From Candidatus Auribacterota bacterium (GTDB taxonomy: Bacteria; Auribacterota; UBA6266), in contig JAGLRQ010000131.1 in NCBI GenBank assembly GCA_023136205.1, positions 1 through 7,205 of the forward strand: DNA of 7,205 nucleotides, written 5' to 3'. The notes under the pieces are model-generated. The model did no database searches. It was not told the origin of the DNA and saw only the letters and a list, made by a program, of their open reading frames with translations. Position numbers and translations under genes: made by a program. Positions within the stretch are counted from its first letter, which is position 1. Each line of letters opens with the position of its first letter. Shown here piece after piece: positions 1 to 7,205 of the stretch.

Positions 1-965
1 TTTTTTATAACTTGCCATATGTGTTTCGGATTGAAGTCTTCAGAAGCAAAAAGAAAGCATTCAAACCCGAACTCTATTATCTTCTTATTCAACAAATGGT
101 TGTTTGTTACAAAAAGAACTCCACAGTTTTTGTTCTCAACCAGGTATTTAGCAATAAGGGTTGCGCGCATAAAGTGTCCAAACCCTAAATCAGGCCCCCC
201 GTCAATAATAAATAATACTTTCCTGCTTTTATCTTCAGGTTTTTTCTGTAAAACATGGGCATTAATAGATTTCAAGTGAGGATTTTTCTCTAAAAATCTG
301 ATAATTTTTTTTAAATCCACTATGTTTTTACGATCCCAAAAACGCTTGTAAATACCCTCCATAAACTTAAAATCTGCCATGTTGTCGATAGATAATCTAT
401 ACCCGGCCTTTTGGAAAACTTTTGCCGGCTTAAAACAGACTGTTTTCCCAAATTCAGGGTGTTCCTTAAGATAAATAGTTACATGCTCTTTATGATAATC
501 CCGGATATCAGATAATCGATAAACTTTTTTAAGTATGCTTAAAGACACTACTGAAAATCCCTCGTGAATGCTAAAGACATCCGGATCCTCTACAAAATAA
601 TCCGCCCCTTTACCAGTCATTACCTTAATGAACCTGTCTATTTCTCTTGGCTCTATTAAAGGAGCATCCCCGGTAATCCTTACAATATAATCCGCCTTAA
701 AATTATCTGCCGCATCAATGTAACGTCTTAAAACATCACTTTCACTGCCTCTGAAAAATTTGATCTTGTATCGTTTACAAAACTTAACTATCGTGGTATC
801 GGCTTCGGTAGTCGAGGTTGCCACAACAATATCATTCAAGTTACTACACTGTTTTAATCTTTTAACAATATGCCAAAGTACGGGTTTGCCGCATAAATCC
901 ATTAGTACCTTGCCCGGCAGCCTTAATGAACCCATTCTTGCCTGAATAATAGCAACTGTTCTCAT
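1..965 (-). CDS. Fusion protein: SpsF/COG1861-type sugar cytidylyltransferase (CTP_transf_3-like, about the first 240 aa) joined in frame to the N-terminal domain of a PseG/SpsG-like UDP-sugar hydrolase. The 3' end runs off the left window edge.
   Basis: This ORF is not in the supplied track. I reverse-complemented 965..1 by hand and got ATG at 965..963 followed by 321 sense codons with no stop, in frame to position 3. The N-terminus MRTVAIIQARMGSLRLPGKVLMDLCGKPVLWHIV, plus IVRITGDAPLIEP and YRLSIDNMADFKFMEGIY, match the conserved blocks of SpsF-like/acylneuraminate cytidylyltransferase-family enzymes. After a short linker (LQKKPEDKSRK), from about nt 218 downward, the sequence VLFIIDGGPDLGFGHFMRATLIAKYL matches the PseG/SpsG N-terminal signature (..D.....G.GH..R...LAK..). 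The ATG overlaps the upstream stop codon (TAATG). Confidence 0.8.
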   Translation of the reverse strand, partial: MRTVAIIQARMGSLRLPGKVLMDLCGKPVLWHIVKRLKQCSNLNDIVVATSTTEADTTIVKFCKRYKIKFFRGSESDVLRRYIDAADNFKADYIVRITGDAPLIEPREIDRFIKVMTGKGADYFVEDPDVFSIHEGFSVVSLSILKKVYRLSDIRDYHKEHVTIYLKEHPEFGKTVCFKPAKVFQKAGYRLSIDNMADFKFMEGIYKRFWDRKNIVDLKKIIRFLEKNPHLKSINAHVLQKKPEDKSRKVLFIIDGGPDLGFGHFMRATLIAKYLVENKNCGVLFVTNNHLLNKKIIEFGFECFLFASEDFNPKHIWQVIK

Positions 966-967
966 TA
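963..967 (-). promoter_or_regulatory. TAATG stop/start overlap (translational coupling) between the short NeuB paralog and the cytidylyltransferase fusion
   Basis: On the minus strand, the TAA stop of the 294-aa ORF (967..965) shares one nucleotide with the ATG (965..963) of the downstream ORF. There is no strong Shine-Dalgarno upstream (..CTGGAAAAAATAATG). Confidence 0.6.
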
Positions 968-1849
968 TTTTTTCCAGGATTTTCTAATCTTTAAAAGAGG
1001 CCTAAGGCCATCAGAAGAGTCAGCACGCCAAACACAATCCTCAAACTCGCTTTGCACAGGAGCCTTATCCCCATTTCCATCAGCCAGAGTAAAATCCTCT
1101 TTTTTTTCTGAGCCATTTCTTACAGCATTTATAACTGCCGCGATTTGATCCGGCAACCAACAATGTCCAATCTGAAATTCTTCTCCGGAACCATCAAGAT
1201 CCATATGGAATTCTATCATCGAAGCATTCCATTTATAAACGGCCCTGTATATAACAGAATCTTTAACACTGTGGTCAGACCATCCTACTTCACATTTATA
1301 TCGGTCTCTCAGTGTTTTTATAGCTGACAGGTTACATTGTTCTACAAGCGCCGGGTAAGCGGAAACACAATGAAGCAATGTTACATCTCTTGCCCCGGCA
1401 GACTTTATAACTTGTACCGCTGAATCAATTTCGTCTATGGTTGCCATCCCTGTTGATAAAATGACAGGTATTTTAGTTTTGGAACAAGACTCAAGCAAAT
1501 CATGCCATAGCAATTCGTACGATGCTATCTTATAAGAATCAACATATGGCTTAAGCTCTTCAACTGCTTCAAGATAGAAAGGAGTACACAAAAACTTCAG
1601 ATTTAACTCATGGCATTTTTGTTTAAGTCTCGGAATAAATTCTAACGGAAGTTCCCAATTTTGTTTTTCACGGTGCCGGGGACTCGCGTTTAATATTTCA
1701 GGGGCAAAAAGTTTATCTATCTTAAAAAGCTGAAATTTTATTCCATCACAGCCGATATTTTTCGATGTTTCAATAAATTTTAAACAGCGATCCAGATCTT
1801 TATTGTGGTTACTTGATATTTCGGCTATAAATTGCACATTGTTTACCAT
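965..1849 (-). CDS. NeuB-family (PEP-condensing) sugar-acid synthase paralog, short form without the C-terminal SAF/antifreeze-like domain (SpsE-like)
   Basis: The 294-aa ORF carries the NeuB TIM-barrel motifs in canonical order: FIAEISSNHNKD, CDGIKFQLF, SYKIASYEL, IPVILSTGMA, VTLLHCVSAYPA, VGWSDHS and MIEFHMDLD. Both predicted metal-ligand histidines are present (SDH and E.H). The protein ends at ..CVWRADSSDGLRPLLKIRKSWKK, which is about where the linker to the SAF domain starts in full-length homologs. By eye it shares roughly 30% identity with the 344-aa paralog in this window. Confidence 0.8.
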   Translation of the reverse strand: MVNNVQFIAEISSNHNKDLDRCLKFIETSKNIGCDGIKFQLFKIDKLFAPEILNASPRHREKQNWELPLEFIPRLKQKCHELNLKFLCTPFYLEAVEELKPYVDSYKIASYELLWHDLLESCSKTKIPVILSTGMATIDEIDSAVQVIKSAGARDVTLLHCVSAYPALVEQCNLSAIKTLRDRYKCEVGWSDHSVKDSVIYRAVYKWNASMIEFHMDLDGSGEEFQIGHCWLPDQIAAVINAVRNGSEKKEDFTLADGNGDKAPVQSEFEDCVWRADSSDGLRPLLKIRKSWKK

Positions 1850-6275: not shown

Positions 6276-6795
6276 GACAAATTTTATCCAGCATTTTTAA
6301 GATTATCAAACTGTAATAAGGATACATTTTGTTATAAATCTCTTCTACGCTGCTGCTCCCGGCAACATCTAAAAATTCTTCAAAGAGGACTTCCCCTTCA
6401 TCCACTTTTTGTGTCATAAAATGAGCGCCGACACTCGCTTTAAACTCTTTATCAGCAAAAGCACGCCCTACGGGATTTGCCCCCTTGTATTTGTACAAAT
6501 AAGGATGGACATTAACCGCGCCCAGCTTCGGTAAATCCAGCAAGTTCTGTTTAACAATTTCTCTTCCATGCACACTTAAAAGCAAATCTGATTCATTTAA
6601 AAATTTAATAAAATTTTCATCTTTTACGCTTTTATAAACAGGAATCCCAAAAGATTCCAGGACATCCGTAAGCTCTTCGGAATAACTAACGGCAGATAAA
6701 ATTTCATATCCCTTAGACAATACCGTAAGGGCGCCTACAAGGCCAGCCTGCCTGCCGCCCATAAAGCAAATCTTTAATTTTTTTTCTATTCCCAC
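6262..6795 (-). CDS. Short formyltransferase-fold protein (Formyl_trans_N-like), candidate sugar N-formyl (or other acyl) transferase
   Basis: The 177-aa ORF starts at GTG 6795, preceded by a strong SD. The N-terminal Rossmann strand KICFMGG resembles the MKI.F.G start of Fmt/PurN. GAVNVHPYLYKYKGANP corresponds to the N-x-H-x-S-L-L-P-x-x-R-G block (Asn95, His97). HFMTQKVDEGEVL corresponds to the ..D.G.I(L) block (Asp132). The His-to-Asp spacing of 35 residues is close to that in PurN. The protein lacks the Fmt-type C-terminal domain. Confidence 0.7.
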   Translation of the reverse strand: MGIEKKLKICFMGGRQAGLVGALTVLSKGYEILSAVSYSEELTDVLESFGIPVYKSVKDENFIKFLNESDLLLSVHGREIVKQNLLDLPKLGAVNVHPYLYKYKGANPVGRAFADKEFKASVGAHFMTQKVDEGEVLFEEFLDVAGSSSVEEIYNKMYPYYSLIILKMLDKICHENR

Positions 6796-7205
6796 AATTT
6801 ACTCCTTTTAATTATTCTTATTGCTCCGTTTCTATCCACAAGAGCATTTCCGCTTTTTTTACGTTTCTGCCTTTCCCTATGAGATTGCAAAACATTAACA
6901 CTTTCCGCGATATTTAACGACAAGTCAGGGCCGTTATACCAGCCCGCGTTCTCAATAAAAAGATTTTGCCGCAGGCTCTTCAAATTAAGCTCCTGGTTCT
7001 CCGCGAAACAAACTGCTATTGTAGGAACACCTACTGCCGCCAGTTCATAAAGAGTCTGGCCACCCCCCGAAATACACAAGTCCGTATCAAGCATAAGCTT
7101 CAACATCGAATCCGCATCTATCCTTTTTTTACAAGTATCTACGACATTAACTTCAAAACCAAACTGAGACTCCAAAAACGTAACAACTTTACCCTGCAAA
7201 TCTTT
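6786..7205 (-). CDS. pseG: C-terminal half of a PseG/MurG-type (Glyco_tran_28_C-like) UDP-sugar hydrolase; the 5' end lies beyond the right window edge
   Basis: The frame is open to nt 7205 (AAA GAT TTG CAG..), so the TTG 'start' at 7199 in the ORF track is an artefact of the window edge. The motif DLCISGGGQTLYELAAVGVPTIAVCFAENQELNLKSL matches the GT28 C-domain/PseG block (I.(S/A)(G/A)G.T..E....G.P......A.NQ......L). Only about 139 aa are present, whereas PseG-type proteins need an additional N-domain. The gene lies two genes upstream of the pseI-like gene. The symbol is assigned from motif plus context and is not certain. Confidence 0.6.
   Translation of the reverse strand, partial: KDLQGKVVTFLESQFGFEVNVVDTCKKRIDADSMLKLMLDTDLCISGGGQTLYELAAVGVPTIAVCFAENQELNLKSLRQNLFIENAGWYNGPDLSLNIAESVNVLQSHRERQKRKKSGNALVDRNGAIRIIKRSKLWE
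6802..6807 (-). promoter_or_regulatory. Canonical Shine-Dalgarno AAGGAG, 6 nt upstream of the GTG start of the formyltransferase-like gene
   Basis: The minus strand reads AAAAGGAGTAAATTGTG. The SD lies inside the 3' end of the upstream PseG-like ORF, and it supports GTG 6795 as the true start. Confidence 0.7.

What the first reader, a model, noticed from the sequence alone, without database searches (positions are those of the whole stretch)
1..7205. System-level view: compact dual-module NulO locus (pseG - formyltransferase - pseI | orphan transferase - flippase | short neuB - spsF::pseG fusion)
Seven co-directional genes with overlaps or gaps of 25 nt or less form what looks like two biosynthetic modules flanking an export/transfer core.
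- **Module A:** a PseG-like hydrolase, a formyltransferase-fold protein and a PseI-like synthase.
- **Module B:** a SAF-less NeuB paralog and a cytidylyltransferase::PseG-like fusion.
- **Core between them:** the orphan 616-aa putative transferase and a Wzx-type flippase.
- **Gene counts:** there are two hydrolase modules and two synthases, but only one cytidylyltransferase is visible.
- **Possible explanations:** (a) two different NulOs are made from a shared precursor pool and activated by one enzyme; (b) there is a branched pathway to a modified, for example N-formylated, Pse-like sugar; or (c) module B makes a non-canonical keto-sugar acid. I do not recognise this combination as a described pse, leg or neu locus architecture.
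Basis: inference. Interest (0 to 1): 0.7.

Follow-up and report, generated by a model that had tools for sequence, protein, structure and literature searches.

The report
Two-branch pseudaminic-acid-type glycan locus
The window is the middle of a roughly 20-gene surface-sugar operon from an uncultivated Candidatus Auribacterota bacterium; it pairs an ordinary pseudaminic-acid pathway with a second, widespread but barely studied pathway built on a short NeuB enzyme, a pairing that was absent from 79 comparison loci.

Summary
**Observation:** confirmed.

**Context:** the window is a fragment of a locus of at least 22 kb in a Candidatus Auribacterota MAG.
- Upstream lie bona fide PseB and PseC, a second SpsF-type cytidylyltransferase and a GNAT.
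- Downstream lie two ATP-grasp ligases, a B12 radical-SAM enzyme and a split transketolase. A sister MAG adds an SDR, a methyltransferase and a third ATP-grasp.

**Module A** (PseG, formyltransferase, PseI) is a canonical Pse route with a PseJ-like N-formylation step, which is already known.

**Module B** is neither a remnant nor an orphan.
- The short NeuB belongs to a strongly conserved family (about 60% identity across phyla).
- In 34 other loci it replaces PseI, and the loci carry ATP-grasp, ThDP-enzyme, SDR and methyltransferase genes but no detected homologue of this locus's GNAT.
- By composition it matches Shewanella oneidensis sfmABCDE, which is needed for a Pse-like flagellin glycan with one non-acetyl N-substituent.

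**The 616-aa orphan** is a confidently modelled GT-B enzyme of a large uncharacterised family and is always followed by Wzx.

**Best reading (0.55):** two differently N-acylated Pse-type sugars are made from one PseB/PseC pool, each with its own hydrolase, synthase and cytidylyltransferase.

**Verdict:** new variant of a known kind; moderate interest.

The parts
6786..7205 (-). C-terminal 139 aa of a PseG-like UDP-sugar hydrolase. The complete gene is 314 aa on the source contig (L001 7488-8432).
   Evidence: PF04101 30.7 bits, and the TIGR03590 PseG C-terminus is matched. The full-length protein scores 127 bits on TIGR03590, below the 153.55 cut-off, and has the N-terminal GFGHxxR motif.
6262..6795 (-). 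177-aa formyltransferase-fold protein: a candidate N-formyltransferase for the 4-amino sugar, PseJ-like in role.
   Evidence: PF00551 41.4 bits. The Asn/His/Asp catalytic positions align with Fmt and sugar formyltransferases, and there is a weak hit to PseJ (6ci2, E 1.6e-4). The same PseG-FT-PseI order is found in L032, L168 and L170. dN/dS 0.17.
5241..6275 (-). Canonical pseudaminic acid synthase PseI (NeuB barrel plus SAF domain), 344 aa.
   Evidence: TIGR03586 483.6 bits (cut-off 340.25); PF03102 312.9 bits; PF08666 51.3 bits. dN/dS 0.15.
3367..5217 (-). 616-aa GT-B-fold protein of an uncharacterised family: the putative glycosyltransferase for the locus's special sugar.
   Evidence: No Pfam, NCBIfam or PDB sequence hit. 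AF2 model pLDDT 90.5. Foldseek finds GT-B enzymes at E about 1e-7. A profile search finds 980 cluster representatives. It is followed directly by Wzx in L001, L170, L167, L168 and L169. Relatives weakly match TIGR04331, the LIC12162 family transferase. The sister MAG has a 28%-identical version.
1860..3341 (-). Wzx-type (MOP superfamily) flippase, 493 aa.
   Evidence: PF01943 49.9 bits; PF13440 48.3 bits; NF007773 MOP flippase matched along the full length. dN/dS 0.12.
965..1849 (-). Short SAF-less NeuB-family synthase (sNeuB), 294 aa, with a conserved 45-aa C-terminal tail.
   Evidence: PF03102 198 bits, no SAF. More than 7000 homologues at about 60% identity across phyla. Invariant GWSDHS, EFH and WRADPxDGLRP motifs. 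AF2 pLDDT 88, with C. jejuni PseI 8h2c as best structural match. dN/dS 0.16.
1..965 (-). N-terminal 321 aa of a 573-aa fusion of an SpsF-type cytidylyltransferase and a PseG-like hydrolase.
   Evidence: PF02348 123.6 bits, and residues 249-306 match the PseG N-terminus. The full protein scores 92.8 bits on TIGR03590 over residues 249-509. More than 100 fusion homologues keep invariant GxGHxxR and CT P-loop residues. dN/dS 0.21.

Best explanation
The window is the centre of a single-strand surface-glycan operon of about 20 genes and at least 22 kb, from a Candidatus Auribacterota MAG.

**Shared entry.** PseB and PseC, just upstream of the window, turn UDP-GlcNAc into UDP-4-amino-4,6-dideoxy-beta-L-AltNAc.

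**Branch A (canonical).**
1. The 177-aa formyltransferase, acting like PseJ, or the upstream GNAT acylates N4.
2. PseG removes UDP.
3. The SAF-containing PseI condenses the sugar with PEP.
4. The free-standing SpsF-type cytidylyltransferase makes CMP-Pse5Ac7Fo or CMP-Pse5Ac7Ac.

**Branch B (sfm-type).**
1. ATP-grasp ligases install a non-acetyl acyl group. That group is made or tailored by the transketolase/DXS-like ThDP enzyme, an SDR, a methyltransferase and the B12 radical-SAM enzyme.
2. The PseG-like half of the fusion removes UDP.
3. The short SAF-less NeuB condenses the sugar with PEP.
4. The cytidylyltransferase half of the fusion activates the product.

**Core.** The 616-aa GT-B enzyme adds a locus-specific sugar to a lipid-linked glycan, which the adjacent Wzx flips.

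**Shown versus inferred.** Gene content, homology, conservation, selection and neighbourhood statistics are shown. Substrates, the order of steps, the products and the acceptor are inferred.
For: **Context.** PseB scores 515 bits (cut-off 408) and PseC 491 bits (cut-off 424). The contig also carries a second cytidylyltransferase, a GNAT, ATP-grasp ligases, a radical-SAM enzyme and TktN/TktC.

**Each branch has its own set.** The hydrolase, synthase and cytidylyltransferase paralogues are old: 24%, 36% and 30% identity.

**sNeuB stands in for PseI elsewhere.**
- The order PseB-PseC-sNeuB-CT(::PseG) recurs in many loci.
- In L085, PseB and PseC are above their cut-offs, and no PseI or GNAT is present.

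**Contrast between locus types.**

| Gene class | 45 canonical-PseI loci | 34 sNeuB loci |
|---|---|---|
| GNAT | 12 | 0 |
| ATP-grasp | 0 | 28 |
| ThDP enzyme | 0 | 13 |
| SDR | 3 | 19 |
| Methyltransferase | 0 | 16 |

**Fusions link the parts.** CT::PseG::ATP-grasp and NeuB::CT proteins exist.

**Experimental precedent: S. oneidensis sfmABCDE.**
- Its genes are a 290-aa NeuB, a 581-aa TPP enzyme, an SDR, a methyltransferase and an ATP-grasp.
- The organism has PseB and PseC but no clear PseH, PseG, PseI or PseF.
- Its flagellin carries a mono-N-acetyl Pse-like sugar plus a 236-264 Da O-methylated moiety (PMC3765264).

**Other support.**
- PseJ is a precedent for the formyltransferase.
- All genes are under purifying selection.
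- GT-B fold. The GT-B-Wzx pair is conserved.
- In the sister MAG the GT-B is swapped (28% identity) together with a WbuX/HisH/WbuZ acetamidino insert, while the flanking genes stay 86-96% identical.
Against: - There is no biochemistry for any protein of this locus.
- Both PseG-like proteins and the GNAT score below their NCBIfam equivalog cut-offs. Neither cytidylyltransferase matches the PseF equivalog.
- The free-standing cytidylyltransferase sits inside a CT-GNAT-GFO-DegT cassette. In Methanoregula and Sporomusa that cassette occurs beside a complete Pse set with its own cytidylyltransferase. Which cytidylyltransferase serves which branch is therefore uncertain.
- In S. oneidensis, losing the TPP enzyme, the SDR or the methyltransferase abolishes the whole glycan. 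The order of steps is therefore unknown.
- The 236-Da unit (C9H16O7) could itself be a NeuB-type product.
- The link to SfmA rests on length and operon composition, not on an alignment.
- One GT-B relative (L167) has no NeuB gene within 10 kb.
- GNAT absence was scored by BLAST with a single query, which is an insensitive test.
Confidence: 0.55

Rival explanations
1. One heavily decorated sugar rather than two. Module A makes the Pse backbone. The short NeuB, with the ThDP enzyme and SDR, makes a nitrogen-free deoxy-ulosonic or aldonic acid. An ATP-grasp ligase then amide-links that acid to a free amino group of Pse. This corresponds to the reader's options (b) and (c).
For: - The S. oneidensis glycan is a mono-N-acetyl NulO plus a C9H16O7 unit. 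That formula fits the residue of a reduced 3,9-dideoxy-nononic acid, which is my own arithmetic.
- ATP-grasp enzymes are carboxylate-amine ligases.
- The window's organism is the only sampled case with both synthase types, as would be needed if the short NeuB could not make the backbone.
- The missing SAF domain removes the Arg314 substrate contact of NeuB (PMC8208679).
Against: - In 34 loci the short NeuB is the only NeuB-family gene beside PseB/PseC and CT::PseG.
- S. oneidensis is reported to lack a PseI orthologue, so the short NeuB must be able to make the NulO backbone there.
- The short NeuB is flanked by, and in some proteins fused to, a cytidylyltransferase (P0149). That points to a CMP-activated ulosonic acid product.
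- Module B has its own PseG-like hydrolase, which a side-chain route would not need.
Confidence: 0.2
2. A glycosylation island serving two targets. Module A, the GT-B and Wzx build a lipid-linked glycan (LPS, capsule or S-layer). Module B supplies a CMP-sugar to an unlinked protein glycosyltransferase (Maf-like or other) encoded elsewhere. On this view the adjacency reflects shared use of PseB/PseC rather than a common product.
For: - Elsewhere sNeuB cassettes lie in flagellar loci with Maf genes (L084, L085, L092, L153). Only 1 of 34 has a Wzx nearby.
- The GT-B-Wzx pair occurs with canonical PseI loci that have no sNeuB (L168, L169).
Against: - No Maf or flagellar gene lies within the 22 kb seen.
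- Most Auribacterota MAGs in one survey lack flagella (PMC9324843).
- Wzx and the short NeuB are 10 nt apart in one operon, and the arrangement is conserved in the sister MAG.
Confidence: 0.15
3. Module B is a decaying or redundant duplicate of the Pse genes with no function of its own.
For: The only support is the apparent redundancy (two hydrolases, two synthases) and the missing SAF domain.
Against: - All ORFs are intact.
- dN/dS is 0.16-0.25 for the module B genes against a sister MAG.
- The paralogues share only 24-36% identity.
- The short NeuB family is about 60% identical across phyla, with invariant catalytic and tail motifs.
Confidence: 0.02

Closest known systems
Shewanella oneidensis MR-1 sfmABCDE flagellin-modification operon with neighbouring PseB/PseC and Maf (Bubendorfer et al. 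2013, PMC3765264)
   Same: - Both have a roughly 290-aa NeuB-domain protein without SAF, a ThDP enzyme of the transketolase/DXS class, an ATP-grasp ligase, and bona fide PseB/PseC as entry steps. Both have a FabG-like SDR and a methyltransferase too, although for this locus those two genes are seen only in the sister MAG L170.
- Both lack a PseH in the cassette. sfm lacks a PseI as well; module B contains none, although module A supplies one in this locus.
- The sfm product is a Pse-like NulO with one acetyl group and one large non-acetyl substituent.
   Different: - Here the ThDP enzyme is split into two genes.
- There are two extra ATP-grasp genes and a B12 radical-SAM gene.
- The cytidylyltransferase and the PseG-like hydrolase are fused and adjacent.
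- The cassette sits next to a Wzx flippase and a GT-B, not next to flagellar or Maf genes.
- It co-exists with a complete canonical PseI module.
- Sequence identity to SfmA could not be measured with these tools.
Canonical CMP-pseudaminic acid pathway PseB-PseC-PseH-PseG-PseI-PseF (Campylobacter jejuni, Helicobacter pylori)
   Same: - PseB, PseC and PseI are above the NCBIfam equivalog cut-offs.
- PseG-like GT-B hydrolases keep the GxGHxxR motif.
- The operon order resembles PseB-PseC-CT-PseG-PseI, which is seen in 45 comparison loci.
   Different: - The cytidylyltransferases are SpsF/KdsB-like, not TIGR03584 PseF.
- A formyltransferase sits where PseH would act.
- Extra GFO/DegT genes are inserted.
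- A second synthase/hydrolase/cytidylyltransferase set is present.
PseJ formyltransferase route to Pse5Ac7Fo (PDB 6ci2, 6ci4; cited in PMC11040635)
   Same: Both are small stand-alone formyltransferase-fold enzymes of about 180-220 aa encoded among Pse genes. The catalytic Asn/His/Asp positions are conserved.
   Different: Similarity to PseJ is only weak (24.8 bits, E 1.6e-4). Fmt and the GDP-perosamine formyltransferase score higher. Activity and substrate are untested.
Bacillus subtilis SpsE/SpsF/SpsG, the legionaminic acid pathway of the spore crust (Dubois et al. 2020, PMC7439481)
   Same: Both use the same three families together: a NeuB-type synthase, an SpsF-type cytidylyltransferase and a PseG-like GT-B hydrolase acting on UDP-linked intermediates.
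   Different: - SpsE keeps a C-terminal domain beyond the NeuB barrel: its solved chain is 385 aa (1vli), against 294 aa here.
- SpsF and SpsG are separate proteins.
- The entry enzyme there is SpsM, and the product is Leg, not a Pse-series sugar.
Multi-NulO clusters of Leptospira interrogans (PMC3438082) and, from my own knowledge rather than a retrieved source, Campylobacter jejuni
   Same: [quoted passage not shown]
   Different: Those clusters combine Leg, Neu and Pse routes using SAF-containing or phosphatase-fused synthases. None pairs canonical PseI with the short sfm-type NeuB cassette.
LIC12162 family transferase (NCBIfam TIGR04331), an uncharacterised protein of NulO-containing O-antigen regions
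   Same: Both are about 600-aa soluble proteins encoded next to NulO genes. Several relatives of the 616-aa protein give weak C-terminal matches of 20-35 bits.
   Different: The window protein itself gives no hit, and all relatives fall far below the 225-bit cut-off. It is at best a distant sister family.

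Membership tests
CMP-pseudaminic acid pathway (module A) | PseB, the inverting UDP-GlcNAc 4,6-dehydratase | tested here: met
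   L001 1696-2688 scores 515.5 bits on TIGR03589 (cut-off 407.75). The gene lies outside the window.
CMP-pseudaminic acid pathway (module A) | PseC aminotransferase | tested here: met
   L001 2685-3848 scores 490.9 bits on TIGR03588 (cut-off 423.5). The gene lies outside the window.
CMP-pseudaminic acid pathway (module A) | PseI synthase with NeuB barrel and SAF domain | tested here: met
   TIGR03586 483.6 bits (cut-off 340.25); PF03102 and PF08666 both matched.
CMP-pseudaminic acid pathway (module A) | PseG UDP-sugar hydrolase | tested here: inconclusive
   The full-length protein scores 127.2 bits on TIGR03590, below the 153.55 cut-off. It has the N-terminal GFGHxxR motif and aligns with PseG over most of its length.
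CMP-pseudaminic acid pathway (module A) | PseH N-acetyltransferase | tested here: inconclusive
   The upstream GNAT scores 53.4 bits on TIGR03585, below the 93.1 cut-off. A formyltransferase may take this step instead.
CMP-pseudaminic acid pathway (module A) | PseF (TIGR03584) cytidylyltransferase | tested here: not met
   Both cytidylyltransferases score 24-29 bits against a cut-off of 205.7. SpsF-type cytidylyltransferases occupy this position in all 45 canonical comparison loci, so the function is probably met by a different family.
PseJ-type sugar N-formyltransferase | Formyl_trans_N fold with the catalytic Asn-x-His and Asp | tested here: met
   PF00551 41.4 bits. In the alignment to Fmt 4iqf, VNVHP aligns with INVHA and KVDEGEV aligns with KLDAGDI.
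PseJ-type sugar N-formyltransferase | Close sequence relationship to PseJ, and activity on UDP-4-amino-4,6-dideoxy-L-AltNAc | tested here: inconclusive
   PseJ 6ci2 matches at E 1.6e-4 and 24.8 bits, weaker than Fmt (38 bits). Activity cannot be tested here.
NeuB-family NulO synthase (short NeuB) | NeuB TIM barrel with the metal-binding His residues and the PEP-binding Lys/Ser residues | tested here: met
   PF03102 198 bits. KFQ, YKIAS, STG, SDHS and EFH are conserved in at least 90% of 120 family members. The best fold matches are PseI, SpsE and NeuB.
NeuB-family NulO synthase (short NeuB) | C-terminal SAF (antifreeze-like) domain carrying the Arg314 substrate contact | tested here: not met
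   There is no PF08666 hit. The protein ends after a 45-aa tail with the conserved motif DGxGxKxP..SE..RxWRADPxDGLRP. The PseI and NeuB equivalog scores of 168 and 173 bits are far below their cut-offs.
sfm-type flagellin NulO modification cassette (S. oneidensis sfmABCDE) | A NeuB of about 290 aa, a ThDP enzyme, a FabG-like SDR, a methyltransferase and an ATP-grasp ligase, together with PseB/PseC and without PseH/PseI | tested here: met
   - L001 and its sister L170 carry sNeuB, TktN+TktC, an SDR, an FkbM-type methyltransferase and three ATP-grasp genes.
- Related loci have the one-piece 592-aa DXS-like form of the ThDP enzyme.
- The comparison with sfm uses the composition reported in PMC3765264.
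- The PseH/PseI-free condition holds for the cassette in 34 other loci, but not for this locus as a whole.
sfm-type flagellin NulO modification cassette (S. oneidensis sfmABCDE) | Sequence orthology of the short NeuB to SfmA (SO_3261) | not testable with these tools
   The SO_3261 sequence could not be fetched.
sfm-type flagellin NulO modification cassette (S. oneidensis sfmABCDE) | Linkage to flagellin and Maf glycosyltransferase genes | tested here: not met
   No flagellar or MptE-like gene lies within the 22 kb of L001 or the 21 kb of L170. A Wzx and a GT-B are adjacent instead. Flagellar linkage is seen in L084, L085, L092 and L153.
LIC12162 family transferase (TIGR04331) | Score above the family cut-off of 225 bits | tested here: not met
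   The window protein gives no hit at E<=1. Its relatives P0032, P0019, P0031 and P0400 score 20-35 bits, on the C-terminal domain only.
GT-B glycosyltransferase superfamily (616-aa protein) | Two Rossmann-like domains with a C-terminal nucleotide-sugar-binding half | tested here: met
   AF2 pLDDT 90.5 and pTM 0.90. Foldseek matches OtsA, BshA, PglA and UDP-GlcNAc 2-epimerases at E 7e-8 to 4e-6, with target-normalised TM-scores of 0.36-0.60. Donor and acceptor were not tested.
Wzx / MOP flippase | Polysacc_synt family multi-pass membrane protein | tested here: met
   PF01943 49.9 bits (cut-off 28.2); PF13440 48.3 bits; NF007773 aligned over residues 2-490.

The most novel reading that the evidence does not exclude
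The short, SAF-less NeuB with its fused cytidylyltransferase::PseG partner and ATP-grasp, ThDP, SDR and methyltransferase genes may define a distinct and very widespread route to nonulosonic acids. In this route the N-acetyltransferase step is replaced by ATP-dependent ligation of a purpose-built acyl group. The route occurs in many bacterial phyla, and its fusion partner also in archaea. The only laboratory handle so far is the unresolved 510-538 Da Shewanella flagellin glycan.

In Auribacterota this route has been recruited from protein glycosylation into a Wzx-dependent glycan, next to a canonical Pse route. The 616-aa GT-B, with about 980 cluster representatives and no annotation, would be the founding member of a new family of nonulosonate transferases whose donor specificity tracks the tailoring genes.
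Probability: 0.35. Interest if true: 0.7.

Novelty: new variant of a known kind. Interest (0 to 1): 0.5.

Why it matters
- **N-substituent enzymes.** Nonulosonic acids shape how bacterial surfaces and flagella are recognised, yet the enzymes that install most non-acetyl N-substituents are described as largely unknown (PMC11040635). About 30% of catalogued NulO synthases lack the SAF domain and have never been assigned a function (PMC8208679).
- **A testable definition of the short-NeuB route.** This locus and the 34 comparison loci tie that 'environmental' synthase class to a defined, recurring gene set. They also connect it, by gene composition, to the one genetic system in which a product mass is known (Shewanella sfm). 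This gives concrete enzyme sets for in-vitro reconstitution.
- **A natural side-by-side comparison.** Having both routes on one PseB/PseC pool allows canonical and short synthases to be compared directly.
- **A candidate transferase family.** NulO transferases are scarce in the literature, and the locus nominates a large unannotated GT-B family as candidates.
- **If the best reading is wrong.** If module B only supplies a side chain, the locus would still reveal how the unresolved C9H16O7 unit of the Shewanella glycan is built.

Tried and rejected
**Searches that found nothing.**
- Pfam, NCBIfam and a PDB profile search for the 616-aa protein and 30 relatives gave nothing usable. There were only sporadic Glyco_trans_1_2 hits at E of about 0.09, and nothing at all by PDB sequence.
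- Promoter and terminator scans found nothing above the shuffled expectation.
- Literature searches combining transketolase with pseudaminic, nonulosonic or flagellin terms found no paper mentioning transketolase.
- A survey paper on Auribacterota does not mention NulOs.

I used the sister MAG instead.

**Ideas considered and dropped.**
- *The fusion as an unusual 'spsF::pseG' invention.* Rejected: an SpsF-type cytidylyltransferase next to or fused with PseG is the commonest arrangement in Pse loci of Bacillaceae, Acidobacteriota and others.
- *Module B as a recent duplication of module A.* Rejected: the paralogues share only 24-36% identity.
- *The 616-aa protein as a TagF-like CDP-glycerol transferase, suggested by a 'DYPSG..FEA' motif.* No profile or fold evidence singled out TagF, so I claim only a generic GT-B fold.
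- *The transketolase pair as an unrelated housekeeping operon after a 260-nt gap.* Rejected: TktN-TktC-SDR-ATP-grasp recurs inside sNeuB loci, with 62-70% identity to the L084 and L085 copies.

Full report
**1. What is in the window**

All substantial ORFs that make sense lie on the minus strand. In operon order they are:

| Gene | Window coordinates |
|---|---|
| C-terminal 139 aa of a PseG-like GT-B protein | 7205..6786 |
| Formyltransferase-fold protein, 177 aa | 6795..6262 |
| PseI, 344 aa | 6275..5241 |
| Protein with no family hit, 616 aa | 5217..3367 |
| Wzx/MOP flippase, 493 aa | 3341..1860 |
| NeuB-family protein without a SAF domain, 294 aa | 1849..965 |
| First 321 aa of a cytidylyltransferase::PseG-like fusion | 965..1 |

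These coordinates come, and the domain assignments.
- The junctions are -10, -14, +23, +25, +10 and -1 nt.
- Promoter-like and terminator-like matches are no more frequent than in shuffled sequence, and all fall inside genes.

**2. Where it comes from and what surrounds it**

The 616-aa protein is found, identical, on a 291-kb metagenomic scaffold (L001). NCBI copies of the same proteins are labelled Candidatus Aureabacteria/Auribacterota MAG, and one of them sits on a 7205-bp contig.

Upstream of the window L001 carries, on the same strand:
- a B12 radical-SAM gene and a small HTH_17 gene;
- PseB (515.5 bits, cut-off 407.75) and PseC (490.9 bits, cut-off 423.5);
- a 260-aa SpsF/KdsB-like cytidylyltransferase and a GNAT;
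- a GFO/IDH/MocA oxidoreductase and a second DegT aminotransferase;
- the complete 314-aa PseG-like gene.

Downstream it carries:
- the full 573-aa fusion;
- two ATP-grasp ligases;
- a B12-binding radical-SAM enzyme;
- the N- and C-terminal halves of a transketolase.

A sister MAG (L170) has the same locus. After the transketolase it continues with a FabG-like SDR, an FkbM-type methyltransferase and a third, LAL-type, ATP-grasp ligase.

The prediction that pseB/pseC-like genes lie upstream is correct.

**3. Module A is an ordinary Pse route with a known kind of twist**

- PseB, PseC and PseI pass the curated equivalog cut-offs.
- PseG is somewhat below its cut-off, but it has the N-terminal GFGHxxR motif.
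- The 177-aa protein keeps the Asn-x-His and Asp positions of formyltransferases in its alignment to Fmt.
- It gives a weak hit to PseJ, a short formyltransferase solved as 6ci2 and 6ci4. PseJ is credited with completing the pathway to 7-N-formyl-pseudaminic acid (PMC11040635).
- The order PseG-formyltransferase-PseI recurs in an Omnitrophota genome (L032), in L168 and in L170.

An N-formylated Pse is thus a reasonable product, but it is not a new idea.

**4. The 'spsF::pseG fusion' is common**

- A search with the 573-aa protein returned more than 1400 relatives. Over 100 are full-length fusions from Desulfuromonas, Bacillota, Alphaproteobacteria, an ANME-2 archaeon and others. Some are further fused to an ATP-grasp domain (987 aa) or to NeuB (742 aa).
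- Forty-one aligned fusions keep the cytidylyltransferase P-loop residues and a GxGHxxR motif invariant.
- In 80 species genomes, an SpsF-type cytidylyltransferase next to or fused with a PseG-like gene inside PseB-PseC-CT-PseG-(GNAT)-PseI is the standard layout in Bacillaceae, Acidobacteriota and many more.
- This matches the B. subtilis SpsE/F/G trio, which has been shown genetically to make and use legionaminic acid (PMC7439481).

**5. The short NeuB is a conserved enzyme family with its own gene company**

*Conservation.*
- Its relatives number more than 7000. They are 283-295 aa long and about 60% identical across phyla.
- The catalytic NeuB positions are conserved in at least 90% of 120 aligned members.
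- The motifs GWSDHS and EFHxDLDGxGEEFxxGHCWLP are largely invariant across the family.
- A C-terminal tail, DGxGxKxPxxSExxxRxWRADPxDGLRP, stands where the SAF domain would be.
- The AF2 model is confident (pLDDT 88). It is closest to C. jejuni PseI, then to SpsE, NeuB and a SAF-less Leptospira NeuB structure.
- A large phylogenetic survey had already noted that about 30% of NulO synthases lack SAF and come from environmental bacteria. It left their function open (PMC8208679).

*Neighbourhoods.*
- Two Desulfuromonadales-like contigs carry flgM-flgN-flgK-flgL-csrA-fliW-maf followed by PseB-PseC-sNeuB-CT::PseG. These are followed by methyltransferases (plus a radical-SAM gene on one contig), then TktN-TktC-SDR-ATP-grasp and a GH57-like gene.
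- Neither contig has an acetyltransferase or a second NeuB.
- On one of them (L085), PseB and PseC score 530 and 569 bits, above their cut-offs.
- Pooling the 80 genome loci and 80 metagenome loci and scoring them with the locus proteins gives the contrast below.

| Gene class | 45 loci with canonical PseI only | 34 loci with short NeuB only |
|---|---|---|
| GNAT | 12 | 0 |
| ATP-grasp | 0 | 28 |
| ThDP enzyme | 0 | 13 |
| SDR | 3 | 19 |
| Methyltransferase | 0 | 16 |
| GH57-like | 0 | 15 |

- No locus carried both synthase types.
- The ThDP enzyme is either the split transketolase or a one-piece 592-aa DXS-like protein.

**6. Experimental precedent for module B**

The S. oneidensis MR-1 operon sfmABCDE encodes:
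- a 290-aa NeuB-domain protein;
- a 581-aa TPP enzyme;
- a 3-oxoacyl-ACP-reductase-like SDR;
- a SAM methyltransferase;
- an ATP-grasp protein.

It lies next to a Maf gene. The authors state that PseB and PseC are present but that clear orthologues of PseH, PseG, PseI and PseF are lacking. All five sfm genes affect the flagellin glycan.

The glycan is a Pse-like nonulosonate with a single N-acetyl group (274 Da). It carries a further 236-Da unit (C9H16O7) with zero to two O-methyl groups (PMC3765264).

This is the composition and logic that I inferred independently from the neighbourhood statistics. I could not fetch SO_3261 to align it, so the link rests on protein lengths and operon content.

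**7. The orphan 616-aa protein**

- The word-indexed search found only 32 relatives, mostly from Omnitrophota. A full profile search found 980 cluster representatives, 272 of them at E<=1e-30, and nearly all are about 620 aa.
- Ten diverse members have no Pfam domain.
- A few give 20-35-bit matches to NCBIfam TIGR04331, the 'LIC12162 family transferase' (cut-off 225 bits). That family is itself uncharacterised and has been noted beside NulO genes (PMC6679464).
- The AF2 model (pLDDT 90.5) is a GT-B fold.
- In all five loci examined, the gene is followed directly by a Wzx flippase. In four of them a SAF-containing NeuB lies a few kb upstream. The exception, L167, has a PseB-like dehydratase, a GNAT, a HisH/HisF-like pair and a formyltransferase, but no NeuB.
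- Between the window's organism and the sister MAG, every shared gene is 86-96% identical with dN/dS of 0.09-0.25. The GT-B is the exception at only 28% identity (E 2e-76).
- The sister locus has simultaneously gained a WbuX/HisH/WbuZ acetamidino-forming trio between PseI and the GT-B.
- This joint replacement is what one expects of a transferase whose donor is the tailored sugar. That is an inference, not a demonstration.

**8. Most likely mechanism**

One PseB/PseC entry feeds two finishing branches.
- Each branch has its own PseG-type hydrolase, NeuB-type synthase and SpsF-type cytidylyltransferase. These paralogues are old, at 24%, 36% and 30% identity.
- Branch A gives a formylated or acetylated Pse.
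- Branch B gives a Pse-series sugar whose second amino group carries an acyl group put on by ATP-grasp ligases.
- The GT-B and Wzx then place at least one of these sugars on a lipid-linked glycan.

I give this reading 0.55.

The main rival (0.2) is that the short NeuB builds an acidic side chain that is ligated onto the Pse from branch A. The formula C9H16O7 equals the residue of a 3,9-dideoxy-nononic acid, which is my own arithmetic. However, the short NeuB is the only NeuB-family gene in 34 loci and reportedly in S. oneidensis, and that argues against this rival.

A third reading (0.15) is that the two branches serve different acceptors.

A relic duplicate is excluded by the selection and conservation data.

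**9. Novelty**

The parts are known kinds:
- the Pse pathway;
- PseJ-type formylation;
- the SpsF/PseG pairing;
- the sfm-type cassette;
- multi-NulO clusters such as that of Leptospira (PMC3438082).

Three things are new here:
- the combination of the canonical and the short-NeuB routes in one operon, which was seen in none of the 79 comparison loci;
- its placement beside Wzx rather than flagellar genes, in a candidate phylum with no glycobiology;
- the recognition that the short-NeuB cassette is a very widespread, self-contained route with a defined gene set.

The unannotated GT-B family is a further lead. I rate the finding as a new variant of a known kind, of moderate interest.

Noticed in passing
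L001 3849-7491 (upstream of the window); also L023 71-4806 and L073 6107-10723: A four-gene set lies between PseC and PseG: an SpsF-type cytidylyltransferase, a GNAT, a GFO/IDH/MocA oxidoreductase and a 428-aa DegT aminotransferase. The same four families occur together in a Methanoregula MAG and in Sporomusa malonica, beside a complete Pse set with its own cytidylyltransferase. The function is unknown; it could make an extra amino sugar or tailor the NulO.
   Followed up: partly
L170 2214-8497 (sister MAG), equivalent to window 3367-5240: The slot between PseI and Wzx is hypervariable. The sister strain carries WbuX, HisH-like and WbuZ genes (the acetamidino trio), a 190-aa protein, a DUF4915 protein and a GT-B only 28% identical to the window's. 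All flanking genes are 86-96% identical.
   Followed up: yes
Homologue lists (P0138, P0142, P0149, P0167, P0273): Several informative natural fusions appear: CT::PseG::ATP-grasp (987 aa), NeuB::CT (742 aa), short NeuB::methyltransferase (513 aa), and a tandem double copy of the 616-aa GT-B family (1274 aa).
   Followed up: no
L085 18798-20774, and 15 of 34 sNeuB loci: A GH57-like protein of about 658 aa regularly follows the LAL-type ATP-grasp gene in short-NeuB cassettes. It has no NCBIfam match, and its role in a NulO pathway is unexplained.
   Followed up: no
L001 1-1256 and 18241-19779: B12-binding radical-SAM genes lie at both ends of the locus segment seen. Relatives occur in some other sNeuB loci (L084, L088, L110, L148). 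This may indicate C-methylation or another radical tailoring step on the acyl group.
   Followed up: no
L001 1425-1709 and L167 3268-3459: A small HTH_17 (excisionase-like DNA-binding) gene sits directly upstream of, and overlaps, the PseB-type gene in two otherwise different loci that contain the GT-B-Wzx pair.
   Followed up: no
L086 10001-10867: In a Methylococcales MAG the short NeuB stands alone a short distance after flgK-flgL, separated by one small gene, and is followed by a UvrD-type helicase gene. None of the usual cassette partners lies within 10 kb.
   Followed up: no
Window 965-1100 (short NeuB residues 250-294): The conserved tail motif RxWRADPxDGLRP resembles the R-P-x-x-G-L-x-P stretch at the end of the SAF domain of the window's own PseI (RSIRPADGLKP). 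The tail may therefore be a minimal remnant of the SAF substrate loop. The AF2 monomer model is less confident there (pLDDT 56-58 for residues 251-270).
   Followed up: partly
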